This document shows, in pieces, positions 32,142 to 64,000 of a DNA stretch of 64,000 bases. This DNA is from Candidatus Omnitrophota bacterium. Its GTDB lineage: Bacteria; Omnitrophota; Gorgyraeia; Zapsychrales; Fredricksoniimonadaceae. The position numbers and the translations under genes are program-made. Every line of letters starts with the position of its first letter. The stretch's first letter is position 1. The notes under the pieces were generated by a model, which worked only from the letters and a program-made list of their open reading frames with translations, ran no database searches and was not told the DNA's origin. The stretch is from contig JAGWOI010000012.1 of NCBI GenBank assembly GCA_028870995.1, forward strand, positions 1,501 to 65,500, read 5' to 3'.

Positions 32142-33144
32142 CGGCTCCTTTGGTGATTTCCAGCTGTACCGGCACATAGACCAGGCGCAGGCCCGTAAAC
32201 AAACTCTTGAATGAACGTAATTTCACCGTATCCTTATGGGTGGTGACCAAAACTTCGATCTGCTGCGAACGGCAATACGCCGTCATGTGCCGTATATCAC
32301 CGGCGTTATAGGCATGATGGTCCATGTAGGTAAAGAATTTAACGGCCTGGACCGACGAATTCTTCAAGGTCAATTCGAAAGAAAGCGGATCGCCGATGGC
32401 ACAAAACCCCACCACCCGCTTCTGGTTCAGGAAATCCGGGGGCATGATCGTCCCGTCAAAAGCATCAATGGTGGCCCCGCTCTTATAAATACTTTCCATG
32501 ATCAAGGCTTTCGGGTTTAACTTCTGAAGCCGCGATGTCAAAGCAGTTATATTTTTAGAAGCGCTGGTCTTGGTCAATATAAAAACATCCGCGCGTCTCA
32601 AGGCTGATAAAGGTTCCCGCAGGACGCCTGCCGGCAGCAAATAGCCGTTGCCGAAAGGATTGACGGCATCGATGGTCACGATGTTCAGATCACGGTGCAG
32701 GGGCCAGTGCTGGAAGGCATCATCGCAGATGTAGACATCTGCCGGGAGCGTCGATTCAGCCTCGCGGATATTGGCAGAGCGGTCCCCCCCTGCCAGCACC
32801 GGAATATAGGGGATCTGTTCATTAAGCATGTCCACTTCGTCGCTAATTTTCGAAATTTGGGGTTTATAACCGCGGATAAGCACGATCGATTTGAATCCCT
32901 TGTTTTGTAAATTTTTAGCAAGCCAAATAACCAAGGGAGTCTTCCCTGTCCCTCCCACCGTAATGTTGCCGATGCTGATCACGGGTTTGGGGGCCTTGTA
33001 TATGCCCTTCAGACGGCAAAGGTTGCGATGGCAAACAACACCCCATTCATACACCATAGAGAAAGGCACCAGCAAATACATGATCAATTGGCCTATAAAG
33101 CTGGTGTTTTGCCCCTTCATGATGGAAAGCAAATAGGCCTTCAT
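32101..33144 (-). CDS. lpxK: tetraacyldisaccharide 4'-kinase
   Basis: 347 aa. P-loop PVISIGNITVGGTGKTPLVIWLA and overall LpxK layout. Confidence 0.85.
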   Translation of the reverse strand: MKAYLLSIMKGQNTSFIGQLIMYLLVPFSMVYEWGVVCHRNLCRLKGIYKAPKPVISIGNITVGGTGKTPLVIWLAKNLQNKGFKSIVLIRGYKPQISKISDEVDMLNEQIPYIPVLAGGDRSANIREAESTLPADVYICDDAFQHWPLHRDLNIVTIDAVNPFGNGYLLPAGVLREPLSALRRADVFILTKTSASKNITALTSRLQKLNPKALIMESIYKSGATIDAFDGTIMPPDFLNQKRVVGFCAIGDPLSFELTLKNSSVQAVKFFTYMDHHAYNAGDIRHMTAYCRSQQIEVLVTTHKDTVKLRSFKSLFTGLRLVYVPVQLEITKGADEFFEKISSICLR

Positions 33145-34421
33145 TGTAAAAATCCCGCCAGGTATTCCAGGCAGCGCTCAGTGGCGCCCTGATTAACGGC
33201 AACAACTTCTTTGGCCGCATCCCCTAACGCCCGGCGCCTTTCTTCATCCGCGCCCAAGGAAAGGACCGCCTTCTCAAAACTTTCCGGGTCCGCCACCTGG
33301 ACAAGGGCCTCGCGTTCTTTAAAGCAGGCAACGATGTCCCTGAAATTCTGCACATGAGGACCGATGATGACGGCCTTGCCATAGGAAGCAGGCTCAATGA
33401 TATTTTGCCCCCCGCCCTTGACCAGGCTTTTGCCTACGAAAACGAGCGAGGCCACGGAATACAAAGAGCGCAGCTGACCGATGGTATCCACAATGACAAC
33501 AGTGTCCCTGGCTAAAGCTTTCTTGTCCCATTGGGAGAATTTAACGGATTTCATGGCGCGCCCTGCAATAAGCTGCATGATCTTATCCGTTCTTTCCACG
33601 TGCCGGGGGGCGATGATCAAACGCCATTGGGGGTAATGTTCAATAAGCTTGATATAAGCATCAAGCACCATGTCTTCTTCGCCCGGATGGGTGGAACCCG
33701 CCACCCACCAATTGCGTCCCTGTTCCCAAGACCAGACGGATGATTGCGCAGGCTTGACCGGCTCGTCAAATTTAATATTGCCGACAACAACCACCTTCGA
33801 GGCTTCAGCGCCCAGATCGATGACCCTGTCAGCATCAGTCTTGCTTTGCATGCACCAAACCCGGATTTGATTTAAAACATTTCTTAGCAGAAGGCGGACC
33901 CATTTGTAACGGCTGAAAGACGCATCCGAAATACGGCCATTAATGACAACCGCCGGGATATTCTTTAAATGAAGTCTCCTGAAAAGATTCGGCCATATTT
34001 CAGTCTCCACGGCTATGTATAATTTGGGAGCGATCAGTTTGACAAAACGGCTGGTCACCCAGCTGAAATCCACGGGTGAAGGCACAACCAAAGCCTTCCC
34101 CCTCAAGCGTTCGCAGGCAAGCGCATATCCGGTTTTGGTTGTAACGGTGACAACAAACTGGTAGGCCGGATAAAGCTGTCTTAAACGGGACAAAAAATTA
34201 TCAATGACCATCACCTCGCCGACGCTGACGCCGTGCAGCCATATATTGGTATTTTGCTTTATCTGACGTTCGATCTCTGGGTCAAAACGCCCTGTCCTCA
34301 TGGAAAATCCTGTATATCCCCGGCCGGTCAGCAGCAAATACGGCAGGTACAGCAACGCATAAAATAATAAAATAAAATTATACAGGACGAGCATGTACTT
34401 ATTATAACTTTTCATTTTCAA
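33141..34421 (-). CDS. waaA: 3-deoxy-D-manno-octulosonic acid (Kdo) transferase
   Basis: 426 aa. IWLHGVSVGEV...RLIIAPRHVER...GGQNIIEPASYGKAVIIGPH are KdtA/WaaA signatures. Confidence 0.85.
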   Translation of the reverse strand: MKMKSYNKYMLVLYNFILLFYALLYLPYLLLTGRGYTGFSMRTGRFDPEIERQIKQNTNIWLHGVSVGEVMVIDNFLSRLRQLYPAYQFVVTVTTKTGYALACERLRGKALVVPSPVDFSWVTSRFVKLIAPKLYIAVETEIWPNLFRRLHLKNIPAVVINGRISDASFSRYKWVRLLLRNVLNQIRVWCMQSKTDADRVIDLGAEASKVVVVGNIKFDEPVKPAQSSVWSWEQGRNWWVAGSTHPGEEDMVLDAYIKLIEHYPQWRLIIAPRHVERTDKIMQLIAGRAMKSVKFSQWDKKALARDTVVIVDTIGQLRSLYSVASLVFVGKSLVKGGGQNIIEPASYGKAVIIGPHVQNFRDIVACFKEREALVQVADPESFEKAVLSLGADEERRRALGDAAKEVVAVNQGATERCLEYLAGFLQ

Positions 34422-59262: not shown

Positions 59263-59287
59263 AGGATTTCGTAATTTAGCATGGGGT

Positions 59288-59316
59288 TTGACAATTTGCA
59301 ACGGCTTTGTTATTGT
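59288..59316 (+). promoter_or_regulatory. sigma70-like promoter TTGACA, 17-nt spacer, TATTGT; the predicted transcript start is at or next to the ATG at 59323 (possibly leaderless)
   Basis: ttgacaatttgcaacggctttgttattgt, followed by tgtgacATGcgt with no Shine-Dalgarno. Confidence 0.3.
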
Positions 59317-59322
59317 TGTGAC

Positions 59323-60255
59323 ATGCGTAAAATAAATATGGCGCTTGTCGGCTGCGGCTTCCTGGGGCAGCGCCATCTCAAATGCCTTCATACCCTTAAG
59401 AACAAGGCCAATATCACGGCCATCTGCGACCATAACGTGGAACACGGCAGATCACTGGGCAAACAATACCGCCTGCCGGTAGTGCAGGATTACCGTGACA
59501 TAGGAGCTGTGGACGCGGTCAGCATATGCACGCCCACGGTCACCCATGCCGAGATCGCCACTCATTTCCTTAATAAAGGCATTCATACCTTTGTTGAAAA
59601 ACCCATCACCTACAGCTTGGAAGAAGCCGATCAACTGATCCGTTTAGCCCGGCAAAACAACCTTAAATTACAAGTGGGCCACGTGGAACGCTTTAACAGC
59701 GCCTTTACAACCATTGAACCCATTGCCCAGAACCCCCTGTTTGTGGAATGTCACCGCCTTAATCTGTTCCCCAACCGTTCCCTGGATATCGGCGTTGTCA
59801 TGGACTTGATGATCCATGACATTGACATCATCCTGGGCCTGGTCAAATCCCCTTTAAAAGACATCCAGGCGGTCGGCATCAATGTCCTGACCGACAAAGA
59901 AGACATCGCCAATTGTCGTCTCACCTTTGCCAACGGCTGTGTCTGCAATGTTACGGCCAGCCGGATCTCCCCTGAGGTGACCCGTAAAATCCGCATGTTC
60001 ACCCAGAACGCCTACATCTCCCTTGACTATGCCAAGCAGGAAGCCAGCATCTACATGAAGGATGCGCGCGGCATTCACAAACGCAACATACCCATCGAAA
60101 AGGAAGAACCTCTCAAGAAAGAGCTTGAGCATTTCCTTGACTGCGTGCGTGAAGACAATTCCCCCAAGGTCTCCGGGGCTGAAGGCCGTGAAGCCCTTAA
60201 AGTAGCCCTGGACATCACCCAAAAAATATGGGAACACCGTCAAAGCATATTATGA
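59323..60255 (+). CDS. Gfo/Idh/MocA-family NAD(P)-dependent oxidoreductase (GnnA-like candidate; see findings)
   Basis: MRKINMALVGCGFLGQRHLK (Rossmann)...FVEKPITYSLEEADQL...VGHVERF are the family hallmarks. Its stop overlaps the lpxB start (ATGA). Confidence 0.7.
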   Translation: MRKINMALVGCGFLGQRHLKCLHTLKNKANITAICDHNVEHGRSLGKQYRLPVVQDYRDIGAVDAVSICTPTVTHAEIATHFLNKGIHTFVEKPITYSLEEADQLIRLARQNNLKLQVGHVERFNSAFTTIEPIAQNPLFVECHRLNLFPNRSLDIGVVMDLMIHDIDIILGLVKSPLKDIQAVGINVLTDKEDIANCRLTFANGCVCNVTASRISPEVTRKIRMFTQNAYISLDYAKQEASIYMKDARGIHKRNIPIEKEEPLKKELEHFLDCVREDNSPKVSGAEGREALKVALDITQKIWEHRQSIL

Positions 60256-61436
60256 TCGTGGCCGGGGAAGCCTCCGGCGATATGCGCGCGGCGGGTGTCG
60301 CCCGTGCCTTAAAACAGCTTGATCCTGCCCTGCGCCTCAGCGGTATCGGCGGGGAGCACATGCGCAGGGCCGGTGTGGAATGTTTTTGCGACATCACCGA
60401 ACTGGCCGTTATCGGCATCGCCGAAGTCGTCAAAAATTTCAGCCGGATAAAAAAAGTATTTCGACAGACCCTCAAACGGATCGATGCCCAGCCTCTTGAT
60501 GCCGTGGTTCTGGTCGATTACCCGGGATTCAATCTCCGCCTGGCCAAGGAAATAAAAAAAAGGGGCATCAAGGTCATTTACTATGTTTCTCCCCAGGTCT
60601 GGGCCTGGCGGGAAAAAAGGATATGGAAGATAAAAAACCTGGTTGACCGGATGATCGTCTTATTTCCTTTTGAGAAGGACTTGTACGGGAAATACGGCAT
60701 GGCTGTCGATTATACAGGCCATCCCCTGGTAGACGAGATCAACGTGGGCCATGACCAGACCGAGGTTTTAAAGACCCTCGGTCTTTCCGTCAGCAAGACC
60801 ACGATAGGCCTTATGCCCGGATCGAGGATCAAGGAAGTGGAACGCCACCTGCCCTGCATGCTGGAAGCGGCCAAGATCCTTTTTAGCCGTAATCAGGAGC
60901 GGCAATTCATCCTGCTTAAGGCCGGCTCCATCCCCCTTGAACTCATCAACCCCATCCTCCGATCCGCCGACATGGACGCGGCCATGACCCTGCCCCATGT
61001 TCCCGCTCACGAAGCCAAAAGATTACTGGGCTCATTTGAAGAAACAGAACAATTCCCGCTTAAAATTTATGACGGCCCCACCTATGACGGCATCAACGCC
61101 ATGGATGCCTGTATGGTTGCCTCCGGCACGGCCACACTTGAATGCGCTCTGCTTAAAAAACCCATGGTCATCATTTACAAAACCTCATGGCTGACCTACA
61201 GCATTGCCAAAGCCGTCATTAAAATTCCTTATATCGGGTTGGTTAATGTGGTGGCAGGCAGGAAGATCGTTGATGAATTGATCCAGGAGGATGCCACCCC
61301 TGTCAACATCGCAAATAAGCTGGAGAAAGCTGTCTACGATCACCACCTTGTCGACGCACTGGCCGCCGTCAAAGACGCACTGGGAGAACCCGGCGCCAGC
61401 CTGCGGGCGGCGAAGGCCGTTCTGGGATCCCTCTAA
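60252..61436 (+). CDS. lpxB: lipid-A-disaccharide synthase
   Basis: Start taken at MIVAGEASGDMRAAGVARALK... with DYPGFNLRLAKEIKKRGIKVIYYVSPQVWAWR and LMPGSR, all LpxB-typical. Confidence 0.85.
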   Translation: MIVAGEASGDMRAAGVARALKQLDPALRLSGIGGEHMRRAGVECFCDITELAVIGIAEVVKNFSRIKKVFRQTLKRIDAQPLDAVVLVDYPGFNLRLAKEIKKRGIKVIYYVSPQVWAWREKRIWKIKNLVDRMIVLFPFEKDLYGKYGMAVDYTGHPLVDEINVGHDQTEVLKTLGLSVSKTTIGLMPGSRIKEVERHLPCMLEAAKILFSRNQERQFILLKAGSIPLELINPILRSADMDAAMTLPHVPAHEAKRLLGSFEETEQFPLKIYDGPTYDGINAMDACMVASGTATLECALLKKPMVIIYKTSWLTYSIAKAVIKIPYIGLVNVVAGRKIVDELIQEDATPVNIANKLEKAVYDHHLVDALAAVKDALGEPGASLRAAKAVLGSL

Positions 61437-64000
61437 TGTGCATTGCTGATCCCTAAAAAATCCTGCAGATTCCCCAAGGGTTGAATATCGATGATCTCCG
61501 GCATAAAGCCGGCGGAGTTGCGCAGCCGCTCCAGTTGTGATGAAGCAAGCTTGAATTTTATCGACAGTCCCGCGCTGCGCACTTGTAAACCCGCTGCGAC
61601 AGGAGTCAGATCAATACCGCCGGTCTTCTTTTGCGATGCTGACATGGCGCGGTCCGGGACTTCGTAAGAGACCGTCAGGCTGGGCAGGCGCTTATTGACA
61701 ATGATAAAGGAGTCCCCGTTCCTGACCCCAATGACCATCGGGCTTTCCGGATCGCCCAATTGAAAGGAGCCGTTGACGGGTTTCACATAACCTTGATTCT
61801 TTTCGTCCCGCAGAATAAAGCTCCCATCCGGCCGTCTTTCTATAACAACAGAGACACTGCCGTTGCCGGTCAACACAATGTCCCCATGCCGCCAATCGAC
61901 CCTCTGGCGGCCGTCAGTTGCCAAAACAATGGATTTAGAAATAAAATAGGAAGACGTCATTGCGCGATCATCCATGGCCGAGGGGCCGCCTATAAGCGTG
62001 TGCGTCTCCCTGCGCATCACGGCAAAGACATCTCTCCAGGGAGCGAGGCCGTCAATATCAATATGAAAGGGGGCATGGAACAAAATCATTCCTTGCGCCG
62101 TTTCGTATTCCCATACGATCACAGGAGAACTTGACGTTTCATAATCTATGCCTGTCAGCTTGCTGCCGTCCGTAAAGGTAAATTCTCTATATCTTCCCTT
62201 GGGAGAAACCAAATCTTTTATGCCCGAATCCCCATTGGTGGACAACTGGTCGGGCCAAACAATCATGGCCTGATCGGGCGGTGAAATCAGCAAGTCTCTT
62301 AATTCCCGGCCGGTGCCGATCACCTCCAAACCAAATTCTTCGGCCCGTAATCTCACTTGGGTCCGGTAGTCATTCACCACTTCCAAACCATGCCGGCCCA
62401 TTTGAGTCGACACCTTTGGATCAGCCATCAGCCTCAGGAAATTTTTAAAATTAAAAACTTCGGCGGCCCCTCCATTGGACAAGGCCTCCTTGCCTTCCTT
62501 GTTATAGGTCCAATCACCTTCAAAATACAGCACCGCAGCTCCCTGGCTGGCTGGTTCGAAAATGTTCCTGTCATCGCCGATGACCGCCACATCAGCCAGG
62601 CCGTACATTTCCCGCAGTTCCCCGTTGGTGTTAAGGATAAGCACATTATGATCCGCCAAACGGGGCATCGGCGCCGCATCGTCACTGCGCACCACGATGG
62701 ACTGGCCGGAGAGGCTGCCTAATAATTTCAACTCCCCCTGGTCACGCCTTTGCCTGAAACCAATGATCAGCAACGGCCTCTGGGAATAAGGAAGGTTCCC
62801 GTAAAGCGTATTATAAGTGTCCATAAATTCGCCGAATTCCTCATCTGAGGGAGAGCCGATGACAATGACTTTTCTTGAAGCCGTACCCAATTCTTCCTTT
62901 AATTCCCCCATTCTTGCCGAAATCTTGGCTGGAAGATTGAATTTAAAAGGAACGTAGGGCAAATCCACAAAAACCCCTTCTCCGGCACGCGTTACGGTGA
63001 TCCCTTCAAAATCATGAAAATCCAAGTGAATGACATCTGGCCGATAAAATCCTTTAAAGGCACGGATCTCATAACCGGGAAAAAGTTTGGCAGCCTGACG
63101 GGCATCGATCTCATCGCTGTACAAAATAATGATTTTCTGTTTATCGAGACCCATGGCCTGAATGAGGCCCCGCGTAGCATTAACAGCAGCCATTTCATAG
63201 ACCCTTACGGCGAACTTGAACGGTGAGTTATTCAAGGTCCAGGCAACCCTTCTTTTCAAAGCAGCCAAGAAAGCCGAAGGATTATTCATCAGGCCGGCAT
63301 AATTACCGACCAATTCCTTTTCCAGAGAATATACGGATTTATGTTGCAAAGAAAATTCTGCATCGGCCATGCTCCCCCTGATCAGTGAAGCAAATATTTG
63401 AAACAATTCTCTTAATTCACCCAATTTCCACTCTGACACCTGATAAGCCGCCGTTGGTTTATCCTTCAACAAGAGAAGCAGTTTTAAGTAATAGGCAAAA
63501 GCACCATCAGGAAGTAAATCCTTTCCATAAGCCGTCCTGAAAAGGGACTTAATATCATCATCGGTAAAACTCTCTTGCCGGGTTACAAATCCGGATTTTA
63601 TCAAGGCATCAAATAGGCTGATGACTGCCTCATGTGCCGGCCATTCGGGAGTCCTATTAAGGGTAAGAAGGAGCGCTATAAAACCCTTCTCCTTGATCTG
63701 CTGCGCAGTGATAAGCCTGGCCTTAATTAAGGAGCTCAAAACCTCTGCTATATCCCTGCGTAAGAAAACATGCGGCGATTGCATAAGCTCATCCGACAGA
63801 ATTTCCCACAAGTTATTATCCTCAACCTGCTGTCGATCAAGGTACCCGGCATTGATCAGCGAATTAAGCGTCTCGAGATTAACTTTGCGCAGAATGGCCT
63901 CCGGGCTGGTAAGGAAATTCTCTATAAGAGTCTGCAGCAGCTTATTTTTCATCAACTGTTGCTTATCGATGAGCCTGGACTTGATCAATTCATTCAGGAT
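61433..64000 (-). CDS. large multidomain hypothetical protein, N-terminus beyond the window: tandem ~40-aa helical repeats, central Kdo-transferase-C-terminal-like (GT-B half) domain, beta-rich C-terminal domain
   Basis: At least 851 aa; the frame stays open to position 64000. Repeats LNELIKSRLIDKQQLM / LNSLINAGYLDRQQVE / LSSLIKARLITAQQIKE / FDALIKSGFVTRQESF. The central NIFEPASQGAAVLYFEGDW parallels NIIEPASYGKAVIIGPH of the waaA product at 33141-34421. Confidence 0.5.
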   Translation of the reverse strand: MLNELIKSRLIDKQQLMKNKLLQTLIENFLTSPEAILRKVNLETLNSLINAGYLDRQQVEDNNLWEILSDELMQSPHVFLRRDIAEVLSSLIKARLITAQQIKEKGFIALLLTLNRTPEWPAHEAVISLFDALIKSGFVTRQESFTDDDIKSLFRTAYGKDLLPDGAFAYYLKLLLLLKDKPTAAYQVSEWKLGELRELFQIFASLIRGSMADAEFSLQHKSVYSLEKELVGNYAGLMNNPSAFLAALKRRVAWTLNNSPFKFAVRVYEMAAVNATRGLIQAMGLDKQKIIILYSDEIDARQAAKLFPGYEIRAFKGFYRPDVIHLDFHDFEGITVTRAGEGVFVDLPYVPFKFNLPAKISARMGELKEELGTASRKVIVIGSPSDEEFGEFMDTYNTLYGNLPYSQRPLLIIGFRQRRDQGELKLLGSLSGQSIVVRSDDAAPMPRLADHNVLILNTNGELREMYGLADVAVIGDDRNIFEPASQGAAVLYFEGDWTYNKEGKEALSNGGAAEVFNFKNFLRLMADPKVSTQMGRHGLEVVNDYRTQVRLRAEEFGLEVIGTGRELRDLLISPPDQAMIVWPDQLSTNGDSGIKDLVSPKGRYREFTFTDGSKLTGIDYETSSSPVIVWEYETAQGMILFHAPFHIDIDGLAPWRDVFAVMRRETHTLIGGPSAMDDRAMTSSYFISKSIVLATDGRQRVDWRHGDIVLTGNGSVSVVIERRPDGSFILRDEKNQGYVKPVNGSFQLGDPESPMVIGVRNGDSFIIVNKRLPSLTVSYEVPDRAMSASQKKTGGIDLTPVAAGLQVRSAGLSIKFKLASSQLERLRNSAGFMPEIIDIQPLGNLQDFLGISNAH

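What the first reader, a model, noticed from the sequence alone, without database searches (positions are those of the whole stretch)
61433..64000. Edge-truncated giant repeat protein next to lpxB, carrying a Kdo-transferase C-terminal-like domain
The minus-strand ORF is at least 851 aa and its N-terminus runs off the window. It begins, in the middle of a repeat, with at least four tandem ~38-40-aa units sharing L-x-x-L-I-[KN]-[SA]-[GR]-[LYF]-[ILV]-[DT]-x-Q-[QE], which looks like HEAT/armadillo-like helical repeats.

A central ~150-aa segment (LLIIGFRQRRDQGELKLLGSLSGQSIVVRSDD...NTNGELREMYGLADVAVIGDDRNIFEPASQGAAVLYFEGDW) closely parallels the C-terminal half of the bona fide Kdo transferase at 33141-34421 (VVIVDTIGQLRSLYSVASLVFVG...GGQNIIEPASYGKAVIIGPH). 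The C-terminal ~290 aa are beta-rich, with a loosely FHA-like stretch (GDIVLTGNGSVSVVIERRPDGSFILRDEKNQGYV).

The gene converges on lpxB with a 4-nt overlap. A repeat scaffold joined to half a Kdo-transferase fold, inside a lipid A neighbourhood, does not match any standard LPS enzyme. It could be a regulatory or scaffolding component of the Kdo-lipid A machinery, or a new envelope glycosyltransferase.
Basis: partly seen in the sequence, partly recalled or inferred. Interest (0 to 1): 0.7.

Follow-up and report, generated by a model that had tools for sequence, protein, structure and literature searches.

The report
Omnitrophota modular protein with WaaA-like domain
The edge-cut gene encodes the last 855 residues of a roughly 1,650-residue, apparently exported Omnitrophota protein that carries helical repeats and a slimmed-down relative of the Kdo transferase WaaA; it belongs to a large uncharacterised protein class, and its position next to lipid A genes looks accidental.

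Summary

A 60-nt exact overlap with another contig rebuilds a 1,651-aa protein:
- signal peptide
- a conserved ~320-aa N-domain, found in at least 2,223 mostly unnamed proteins (all but one of the named ones Omnitrophota)
- at least 10 repeats
- a helical bundle
- a reduced GT-B domain
- two orphan ~100-aa modules
- a C-terminal ~60-aa "GGIDL" tag

The WaaA-like module keeps the residues that contact CMP in WaaA, plus the Lys162 equivalent. It lacks the Glu31 base and half of the acceptor lobe.

None of 13 relatives' loci has lpxB, msbA or waaA within 10 kb. The gene converges on lpxB, and a canonical waaA lies elsewhere in the window.

Best reading: a modular exported or surface protein with a nucleotide-sugar-binding, possibly transferring, WaaA-derived module, unrelated to lipid A assembly. 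This is a new variant of a known fold in an undescribed architecture; moderate interest.

The parts
61433..64000 (-). Edge-truncated ORF: the C-terminal 855 aa of a reconstructed 1,651-aa protein, plus the stop codon.
   Evidence: It is 100% identical to P0001 (Omnitrophota MAG). The N-terminal 816 aa (P0017, on contig L007) end in the same 60 nt as the window edge, and this 60-mer is unique in both sequences.
63557..64000 (-). HEAT/ARM-like helical repeats: one partial unit (residues 1-19) and three full 42-43-aa units (residues 22-63, 65-106, 107-148).
   Evidence: Repeat HMM domain E-values are 5e-7 for the partial copy and 7e-18 to 7e-17 for the three full ones. Ten copies occur in the full protein, against 1 hit in 100 shuffles. 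Pfam HEAT, HEAT_2 and Arm hits on the upstream repeats are weak.
63230..63553 (-). Helical bundle (residues 150-257), conserved together with the GT module in the closest subfamily.
   Evidence: Alignment A2. The AF2 model shows helices at model residues 2-108 (numbering starts at ORF residue 150), with 10-residue block pLDDT means of 70-90.
62951..63229 (-). Reduced GT-B N-lobe (residues 258-350, about 95 aa against about 200 in WaaA). The acidic residues E269, E297 and D330 are moderately conserved. The WaaA motif S-x-G-E reads A-A-V-N-A here.
62276..62950 (-). GT-B C-lobe (residues 351-575), homologous to the CMP-Kdo-binding domain of WaaA (GT30). K353, R416, G460, L462, N479 and E482 correspond to K162, R212, G248, L250, N273 and E276 of A. 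aeolicus WaaA.
   Evidence: WaaA residue roles are taken from review PMC6286764. Conservation across 90 domain instances is K 97%, R 88%, G 98%, N 92% and E 96%. Codons were verified.
62264..62275 (-). D-Q-A-M boundary motif, directly after the GT module.
61970..62263 (-). Orphan module A (residues 580-677), lineage-specific.
   Evidence: Absent from all homologues in alignment A1. phmmer finds nothing among 279 related proteins. No Pfam hit.
61958..61969 (-). D-R-A-M boundary motif between the two orphan modules.
61655..61957 (-). Orphan module B (residues 682-782).
   Evidence: No FHA or other Pfam hit at E<=10. The only PDB hit is an SH3 domain at E=0.36.
61643..61654 (-). D-R-A-M boundary motif, a few residues before the C-terminal tag.
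61442..61633 (-). Conserved C-terminal tag (residues 790-853): GGIDLTP...F.P.I..IQP...L..FLG.
   Evidence: Tag HMM E=4e-31. It lies at the extreme C-terminus of the proteins that carry it, in 25 of the 120 top N-domain proteins and at least 25 representatives bearing the GT core.

Best explanation
The ORF is the C-terminal half of a roughly 1,650-aa modular protein of a Candidatus Omnitrophota bacterium.

Architecture, in order:
- a Sec-type signal peptide
- a conserved ~320-aa N-terminal domain (NDOM)
- at least 10 HEAT/ARM-like 42-43-aa repeats
- a helical bundle
- a reduced GT-B domain derived from the Kdo transferase family (GT30/WaaA)
- two lineage-specific ~100-aa modules
- a ~60-aa C-terminal 'GGIDL' tag (CTAG)

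Shown:
- the architecture
- true homology of the C-lobe to the CMP-Kdo-binding domain of WaaA
- retention of all the residues that contact CMP, plus the Lys162 equivalent
- loss of the WaaA catalytic Glu31 motif and of the Glu98/Trp102 segment
- no conserved linkage to lipid A genes

Inferred mechanism:
- NDOM and CTAG form a family-specific frame that exports, targets or anchors variable enzyme-like cargo.
- The repeat array is a spacer or binding scaffold.
- The WaaA-like module binds a nucleotide-activated sugar, most parsimoniously a CMP-linked ulosonic acid.
- It either transfers that sugar to an acceptor that is not lipid IVA, or merely binds it.

The module is not a component of the cell's own Kdo-lipid A pathway. 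Its place next to lpxB is coincidental.
For: Architecture and the join:
- a 60-nt exact and unique overlap; NDOM E=2e-183, GT core E=5e-191, CTAG E=4e-31 in the joined protein.

Repeats:
-.

Fold and homology:
- AF2 model with pLDDT 84.8 and pTM 0.82.
- Foldseek gives the same ranking.
- HHalign against a WaaA alignment: prob 99.8%, E=2e-28.
- NCBIfam hits are to WaaA models only.

Ligand residues:
- Mapping comes, with roles from PMC6286764.
- They are 88-98% conserved in 90 diverged domain copies.

Family breadth:
- 143 representatives at E<1e-10. Among the best 150 listed, about 120 are family members: proteins of up to 5,094 aa and stand-alone 315-345-aa proteins. The rest are true WaaAs of about 425 aa at E~1e-11 to 1e-13.
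- Three of four stand-alone homologues examined lie in GT-rich clusters. This argues that the module descends from a working transferase.

Export:
- The alignment consensus shows R, a hydrophobic core, G-P-x-P, then A-Q just before NDOM.
- The 1,651-aa protein has a single hydrophobic segment, at its N-terminus.
- HEAT repeats are reported as the commonest domains in predicted extracellular parts of Omnitrophota giant proteins (bioRxiv 10.1101/2023.11.21.568195).

No lipid A linkage:
-.
- A canonical waaA is present in the window.
Against: - A nucleotide-sugar-dependent GT-B domain outside the cytoplasm has no obvious donor supply.
- Export is inferred from sequence rules only; no SignalP-type tool or experiment was available.
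- The catalytic base of WaaA is not conserved. N-lobe acidic residues are only about 65% conserved, so the module may not be catalytic.
- Cytosine is read by backbone atoms in WaaA, so the nucleotide type cannot be deduced from sequence.
- The join to the N-terminal half rests on 60 nt inside a repeat region.
- The two orphan modules have no model.
Confidence: 0.6

Rival explanations
1. One reading: a regulatory or scaffolding subunit of the Kdo-lipid A assembly machinery. It would use its half-WaaA domain and repeats to organise LpxB, WaaA and MsbA.
For: - lpxB, a Gfo/Idh/MocA sugar dehydrogenase gene and msbA lie immediately beside it.
- The domain is specifically WaaA-like.
Against: - The gene is convergent with lpxB, with overlapping stop codons.
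- None of 13 relatives' loci has lpxB, msbA or waaA within 10 kb.
- A signal peptide is predicted.
- The same module occurs in dozens of proteins of 1 to 5 kaa with unrelated cargo.
Confidence: 0.05
2. A membrane-anchored, cytoplasm-facing active glycosyltransferase of the cell's own envelope or exopolysaccharide. The N-terminal hydrophobic segment would be an uncleaved anchor and the cargo would work with cytoplasmic nucleotide sugars.
For: - The nucleotide-binding residues are almost invariant.
- Stand-alone homologues without any signal sit in GT2/GT4/deacetylase/acetyltransferase clusters.
- Other NDOM proteins carry cofactor-dependent cytoplasmic-type enzymes: kinase, HAD, methyltransferase and HATPase.
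- A 2026 preprint assigns many long Omnitrophota proteins a membrane-anchored cytoplasmic topology (10.64898/2026.06.07.730766).
Against: - The N-terminus has the n-h-c layout of a cleaved signal, with a conserved A-Q site just before NDOM. A positive charge precedes the hydrophobic core, which favours an N-in/C-out orientation.
- There is no conserved polysaccharide gene context for the multi-domain members.
Confidence: 0.2
3. A catalytically dead, lectin-like module. The WaaA-derived domain would only bind a Kdo-, phosphate- or nucleotide-bearing ligand (for example LPS of a partner or prey cell) on a surface-exposed HEAT scaffold.
For: - The Glu31 base and the Glu98/Trp102 segment are lost, and the N-lobe is halved.
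- An extracytoplasmic location is predicted.
- Omnitrophota large proteins have been proposed to act in attachment to other cells (PMC10066038).
Against: - The full set of CMP-contacting residues plus K353 is 88-98% conserved. This is what a donor site needs, and more than a glycan-binding site would.
- Acidic residues remain at cleft-facing strand ends (E269, E297, D330).
Confidence: 0.15

Closest known systems
WaaA/KdtA, lipid IVA Kdo transferase (CAZy GT30; PDB 2XCI/2XCU of Aquifex aeolicus, 4BFC of Acinetobacter baumannii)
   Same: - GT-B fold.
- The motifs P-R (R212), T-x-G-x-L (G248, L250) and N-x-x-E-P (N273, E276) are retained, as is the linker Lys (K162).
   Different: - The N-lobe is about half the size.
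- S-x-G-E (Gly30-Glu31) is replaced by A-[SA]-x-N-A.
- There is no E-T-E-x-W-P-N segment.
- The module is embedded in a 1,651-aa protein with a signal peptide.
- It scores 34 bits against a 438-bit family cut-off.
- It is not linked to lipid A genes in relatives.
- The genome has its own canonical waaA.
Long and giant multi-enzyme proteins of Omnitrophota with HEAT scaffolding ('Archaeovorins' and related; bioRxiv 10.1101/2023.11.21.568195 and 10.64898/2026.06.07.730766)
   Same: - Same phylum.
- HEAT repeats lie in parts predicted to be outside the cytoplasm.
- Enzyme-like domains that normally work in the cytoplasm are strung along one polypeptide.
- The same WaaA-like module occurs in proteins of 4,000-5,000 aa.
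   Different: - At about 1.65 kaa, this protein is far below the size classes those papers treat.
- In term searches of the two papers, 'Kdo' was absent from both and 'WaaA' from the 2026 one. 'Glycosyltransferase' was absent from the first and occurs twice in the second, in both cases about LPS/capsule genes carried as mobile cargo.
- The frame's sequence motifs were absent from the whole held library.
Stand-alone 315-345-aa homologues (for example P0083, P0095, P0071)
   Same: Same reduced GT-B core, matching profile positions about 100-410, with the same conserved residues.
   Different: - No signal peptide, no repeats, no NDOM and no CTAG.
- They are encoded in a recurrent cluster: PqqD, GT2, GNAT, polysaccharide deacetylase, GT2, then the core.

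Membership tests
WaaA/KdtA Kdo transferase (GT30) | Whole-protein match to a curated WaaA model above its cut-off | tested here: not met
   The best NCBIfam hit, PRK05749.1-4, scores 34.4 bits against a cut-off of 438 and covers only profile positions 210-410. There is no Pfam hit.
WaaA/KdtA Kdo transferase (GT30) | C-terminal Rossmann-like lobe homologous to the CMP-Kdo-binding domain | tested here: met
WaaA/KdtA Kdo transferase (GT30) | CMP-contacting residues Arg212, Gly248, Leu250, Asn273 and Glu276 (A. aeolicus numbering; PMC6286764) | tested here: met
   R416, G460, L462, N479 and E482 are the equivalents, by the alignments. They are 88-98% conserved in 90 family copies.
WaaA/KdtA Kdo transferase (GT30) | Lys162 at the lobe junction (G-N-x-K-F-D) | tested here: met
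   K353, within P-F-K-F-N-L-P, aligns with the K of I-K-F-D. It is 97% conserved.
WaaA/KdtA Kdo transferase (GT30) | Gly30-Glu31 (the proposed catalytic base) in the S-x-G-E motif after strand 1 | tested here: not met
   S-V-G-E is invariant in 18 WaaAs. The family has A271 and A/S272 at the aligned positions; this N-lobe HHalign is weak, at prob 37%. A Glu (E269) lies three residues upstream in 66% of copies.
WaaA/KdtA Kdo transferase (GT30) | Full-size acceptor lobe with the E-T-E-x-W-P-N segment (Glu98, Trp102) | tested here: not met
   The N-lobe is about 95 aa, against about 200 in WaaA. F-H-D sits at the aligned position and no W-P-N is present.
WaaA/KdtA Kdo transferase (GT30) | Acts at the cytoplasmic face of the inner membrane | tested here: inconclusive
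   The N-terminus of the joined protein looks like a cleavable Sec signal. No dedicated predictor or experiment was available.
WaaA/KdtA Kdo transferase (GT30) | Transfers Kdo from CMP-Kdo to lipid IVA | not testable with these tools
   This needs an enzyme assay.
Lipid A / Kdo gene-neighbourhood component | Conserved linkage to lpxB, waaA or msbA in related genomes | tested here: not met
   tblastn with the window's LpxB, MsbA, WaaA and Gfo-like proteins found none of them in 13 relatives' loci with flanks of up to 10 kb. There are no recurrent neighbours (gene tables).
HEAT/ARM repeat proteins | Tandem two-helix units of about 40-47 aa, beyond chance | tested here: met
   Ten copies at iE<1e-13 with a usual spacing of about 43 aa, against 1 hit in 100 shuffles. 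Three full copies and one partial copy lie in the window.
HEAT/ARM repeat proteins | Match to Pfam HEAT/Arm models at the gathering score | tested here: inconclusive
   HEAT scores 22.5 bits against 23.5, and Arm 19.4 against 20.6, on the upstream repeats. Homologues carry precomputed HEAT/HEAT_2 hits. No structure model of the repeats was made.
FHA domain | Match to an FHA profile | tested here: not met
   No Pfam family at E<=10 for residues 586-855 or for its sub-segments.
Omnitrophota NDOM-cargo-CTAG proteins (unnamed class defined here) | Signal peptide plus the conserved ~320-aa N-domain at the start, and the GGIDL tag as the last ~60 residues | tested here: met
   NDOM at 32-346 (E=2e-183) and CTAG at 1588-1649 (E=4e-31) in the joined protein. 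NDOM depends on the 60-nt join.

The most novel reading that the evidence does not exclude
NDOM-cargo-CTAG proteins may be an Omnitrophota-specific system for exporting or displaying enzyme cargo, possibly processed at D-x-A-M boundary motifs. In that case the WaaA-derived module would be an effector acting on, or with the nucleotide-sugar pool of, a partner or prey cell. For example, it could add or capture a Kdo-like sugar on a foreign envelope. It would then be a GT30-derived enzyme working outside its producer's cytoplasm.
Probability: 0.2. Interest if true: 0.8.

Novelty: new variant of a known kind. Interest (0 to 1): 0.5.

Why it matters
GT30 is known essentially as one enzyme, WaaA. 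This work shows a sizeable sister family: about 120 of the 150 best-scoring 50%-identity representatives, with no Pfam or NCBIfam model. It keeps the CMP-sugar pocket but has a different, halved acceptor lobe. It occurs both as a small cytoplasmic protein in glycan clusters and as cargo in signal-peptide-bearing proteins of 1 to 5 kaa, in a phylum suspected of parasitism or predation.

The finding also exposes a frame shared by more than 2,000 unannotated proteins: a conserved N-domain, a C-terminal tag and D-x-A-M boundaries. If the frame is a targeting or processing device, it would give a handle on how Omnitrophota deploy their enigmatic large proteins.

For genome annotation, the practical message is that this gene should not be called waaA, and should not be tied to lipid A synthesis.

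Tried and rejected
- Homologue search with the last 270 aa alone returned nothing, not even the 100%-identical P0001. I treat this as a tool miss, not as evidence. A local phmmer against 279 relatives confirmed that the insert is an orphan.
- The FHA reading was rejected. The SH3-like hit at E=0.36 is too weak to use.
- The afdb50 fold library was unavailable.
- The primary WaaA structure paper (PNAS 2012) is not held. Residue roles were taken from review PMC6286764 instead.
- The PDB sequence search with the family profile found only WaaA, at E=0.099. This is weak alone, but agrees with the other evidence.
- The synteny search for recurrent neighbours found only a thioredoxin-like ORF, in 2 of 13 loci. 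This is too few to interpret.
- D-x-A-M follows the GT core within 30 aa in only 6 of 110 cores, so it is not a universal core boundary.
- I considered T1SS/RTX-adhesin, T9SS and sortase-type tags for CTAG. I found no supporting motif or profile and dropped them.
- I considered a lipoprotein signal. No conserved lipobox is present.


Full report
**What is in the window**

The minus-strand frame from 64000 down to 61436 is open for 855 codons and ends with TAG at 61433-61435. It converges on lpxB (60228-61436, TIGR00215 E=3e-88). The two stop codons share the tetranucleotide CTAA.

Upstream of lpxB lie a Gfo/Idh/MocA sugar dehydrogenase gene and msbA. A canonical waaA sits at 33141-34421 (E=7e-100).

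The translated fragment is 100% identical to a partial protein of a Candidatus Omnitrophica MAG. It has 16 further homologues in the 5.8-billion-protein collection. Every one that carries a name is from Omnitrophota, and all are called hypothetical.

**Completing the protein**

One hit, P0017 (816 aa, partial, same MAG), ends with the 20 residues that begin the window ORF. Its contig (L007) ends with exactly the 60 nt found at the window edge, and that 60-mer is unique in both sequences. Joining them gives a protein of 1,651 aa. Because the junction lies in a repeat region, the join is likely but not proven.

**Anatomy**

Local HMMs built from homologues give the following layout:
- a hydrophobic N-terminus with an A-x-A-like site
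- a conserved ~320-aa N-domain (NDOM, 32-346)
- an array of 42-43-aa helical repeats
- a helical bundle (window residues 150-257)
- a ~320-aa alpha/beta domain (258-575)
- two ~100-aa segments without any homologue (580-677 and 682-782)
- a ~60-aa C-terminal tag (CTAG, 790-853: GGIDLTP...IQP...FLG)

On the repeats:
- Ten copies score iE<1e-13, with 1 hit in 100 shuffles.
- One partial and three full copies lie in the window.
- Pfam HEAT and Arm hits are just below threshold.

**The WaaA-like domain**

Several independent lines tie it to WaaA:
- BLASTP against the window's own WaaA gives E=1e-8, 29% identity over 203 aa.
- NCBIfam hits are to WaaA models only, far below their cut-offs (34 bits against 438).
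- Pfam finds nothing.
- A 15-sequence alignment of the conserved core (A2) gave an AlphaFold model with pLDDT 84.8 and pTM 0.82.
- Foldseek gives the same order.
- Profile-profile comparison with 18 bona fide WaaAs gives 99.8% probability and E=2e-28, but only for the C-terminal lobe.

The similarity is therefore true homology, and it is specific to GT30. The domain is a complete but shrunken GT-B, not half a fold.

**Functional residues**

According to review PMC6286764, the residues of A. aeolicus WaaA have these roles:
- CMP is held by Arg212, Asn273, Glu276, Gly248, Leu250, Phe247 and Pro211.
- Gly30, Glu31 (the proposed base), Glu98 and Lys162 line the acceptor side.

Mapping these through the alignments gives K353=K162, R416=R212, G460=G248, L462=L250, N479=N273 and E482=E276. 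In 90 diverged copies of the domain these residues are 88-98% conserved.

The N-lobe differs:
- It is about 95 aa instead of about 200.
- The invariant WaaA S-V-G-E motif is replaced. A weak N-lobe alignment puts A271 and A272 opposite Gly30 and Glu31.
- The E-T-E-x-W-P-N segment is absent.
- Acidic residues at strand ends (E269, E297, D330) are conserved in only about two thirds of copies.

The donor pocket is therefore under strong selection. The acceptor side is different and variable.

**Breadth of the family**

An exhaustive profile search of 1.84 billion representatives found 143 proteins at E<1e-10. Among the 150 best-scoring representatives listed, about 120 carry this reduced core:
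- proteins of up to 5,094 aa
- some with two copies, such as P0018 (2,148 aa)
- stand-alone proteins of 315-345 aa without any signal

True WaaAs appear only at about 1e-11 to 1e-13, and only over the C-lobe.

Three of four stand-alone members examined lie in a recurrent cluster: PqqD, GT2, GNAT, polysaccharide deacetylase, GT2, then the core. This fits a descent from a working transferase.

**The frame**

- NDOM finds at least 2,223 proteins at E<1e-5 among the 8,000 candidates scored. Of the 120 best listed, most carry no name. Those with an organism name are Omnitrophota, apart from one annotated as Minisyncoccia.
- The listed hits are 56-98% identical to the query (mostly 60-80%) and have no Pfam or NCBIfam model.
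- NDOM is fused to very different cargo: HAD hydrolase, protein kinase, methyltransferases, HATPase, HD and a sugar transferase.
- CTAG closes the protein in 25 of the 120 best hits. Many of the rest are cut by contig ends.
- One protein, P0249 (438 aa), consists of signal peptide, NDOM and CTAG alone.

NDOM and CTAG thus look like a frame into which cargo is inserted.

The N-termini share the layout of cleaved Sec signals: a basic residue, a hydrophobic core, G-P-x-P, then A|Q just before NDOM. The 1,651-aa protein has no other hydrophobic segment.

Published work on Omnitrophota giant proteins reports HEAT repeats as the commonest domains of predicted extracellular parts, and enzyme arrays with HEAT scaffolding. 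In term searches of those two papers, 'Kdo' was absent from both and 'WaaA' from the 2026 one. 'Glycosyltransferase' was absent from the first and occurs twice in the second, in both cases about LPS/capsule genes carried as mobile cargo. The frame's sequence motifs were absent from the whole held library.

**Genomic context**

- The four relatives whose annotated loci were inspected have unrelated neighbours.
- A scan of species-representative genomes added ten more loci.
- tblastn with the window's LpxB, MsbA, WaaA and Gfo-like proteins found none of them near any relative.
- All-against-all comparison of flanking ORFs found no recurrent neighbour.

Together with the convergent orientation, this makes the lipid A neighbourhood coincidental.

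**The C-terminal 270 residues**

- Apart from CTAG, they have no homologue, even among 279 related proteins.
- They have no Pfam match at E<=10, so the FHA suggestion is not supported.
- The only PDB sequence hit is an SH3 domain at E=0.36.

**Conclusion**

The best-supported reading is a modular, probably exported or surface-exposed Omnitrophota protein.
- Its WaaA-derived module still binds a nucleotide-activated sugar, most simply a CMP-linked ulosonic acid.
- It acts on something other than lipid IVA, or it only binds its ligand.
- The main difficulty is the absence of nucleotide sugars outside the cytoplasm. This leaves three options: action in another cell, an uncleaved anchor with a cytoplasmic orientation, or a non-catalytic binding role.
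- The protein is not a WaaA and not part of the Kdo-lipid A machinery.

Noticed in passing
window 62264-62275, 61958-61969 and 61643-61654 (- strand); also positions 349 and 378 of the joined protein (L007): A short motif [DN]-x-A-M (here DQAM, DRAM, DRAM) sits at every module boundary of this protein. There are 5 copies against 0.27 expected, and 0 of 2,000 shuffles reach 5. The motif is about 10-fold enriched in 151 NDOM proteins (209 observed against 20.7 +/- 4.6). Its density is 2.4 per 1,000 aa outside the defined domains and 1.0 inside them. It could be a linker or a processing site.
   Followed up: partly
L007 2641-5088 (the N-terminal half of the same protein) and proteins P0160-P0279: The ~320-aa N-domain (LPAPGV..LSP..PP.LKGIKV.P.NPFRFDFILDKGD...RKYFSGG) defines a very large paralogous class. 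It has at least 2,223 hits, mostly unnamed; the named ones are Omnitrophota apart from one Minisyncoccia. Several copies can occur per MAG. It has no Pfam or NCBIfam model and no fold match. It is fused to many different enzyme-like cargoes. P0249 is signal peptide, N-domain and C-terminal tag alone.
   Followed up: partly
L005 4405-8996, L025 3606-8753, L027 60-5421: Stand-alone 315-331-aa homologues of the WaaA-like core lie in a recurrent gene cluster: PqqD-like protein, GT2, large GNAT acetyltransferase, polysaccharide deacetylase, GT2, then the core. GT4, an ABC transporter and a methyltransferase lie nearby. The PqqD-like gene hints at a peptide-directed or otherwise unusual glycan pathway.
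   Followed up: partly
proteins P0018, P0020, P0030, P0047 and P0092: Some relatives carry two copies of the WaaA-like core in one polypeptide. P0018 (2,148 aa), for example, has two repeat-array-plus-core units between the same N-domain and C-terminal tag.
   Followed up: no
window 59281-60255 (+): The gene just upstream of lpxB overlaps it by 28 nt. It is a Gfo/Idh/MocA oxidoreductase whose best match is UDP-N-acetylglucosamine 3-dehydrogenase (E=6e-68, below cut-off). It may be a GnnA-like enzyme, which would point to a GlcN3N-type lipid A in this organism.
   Followed up: no
L007 2015-2509 and L001 13718-14149: A thioredoxin/redoxin-family gene lies directly next to the gene in two of 13 loci: upstream in this organism, and downstream (followed by msrB and msrA) in the P0008 locus. 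This is too few cases to judge.
   Followed up: no
window 61436-62245 (- strand), used as a query: The word-indexed homologue search returned no hit at all for the last 270 residues. Yet P0001 in the same collection contains them at 99-100% identity. Negative results from that tool with short or low-complexity-poor queries should not be over-read.
   Followed up: yes
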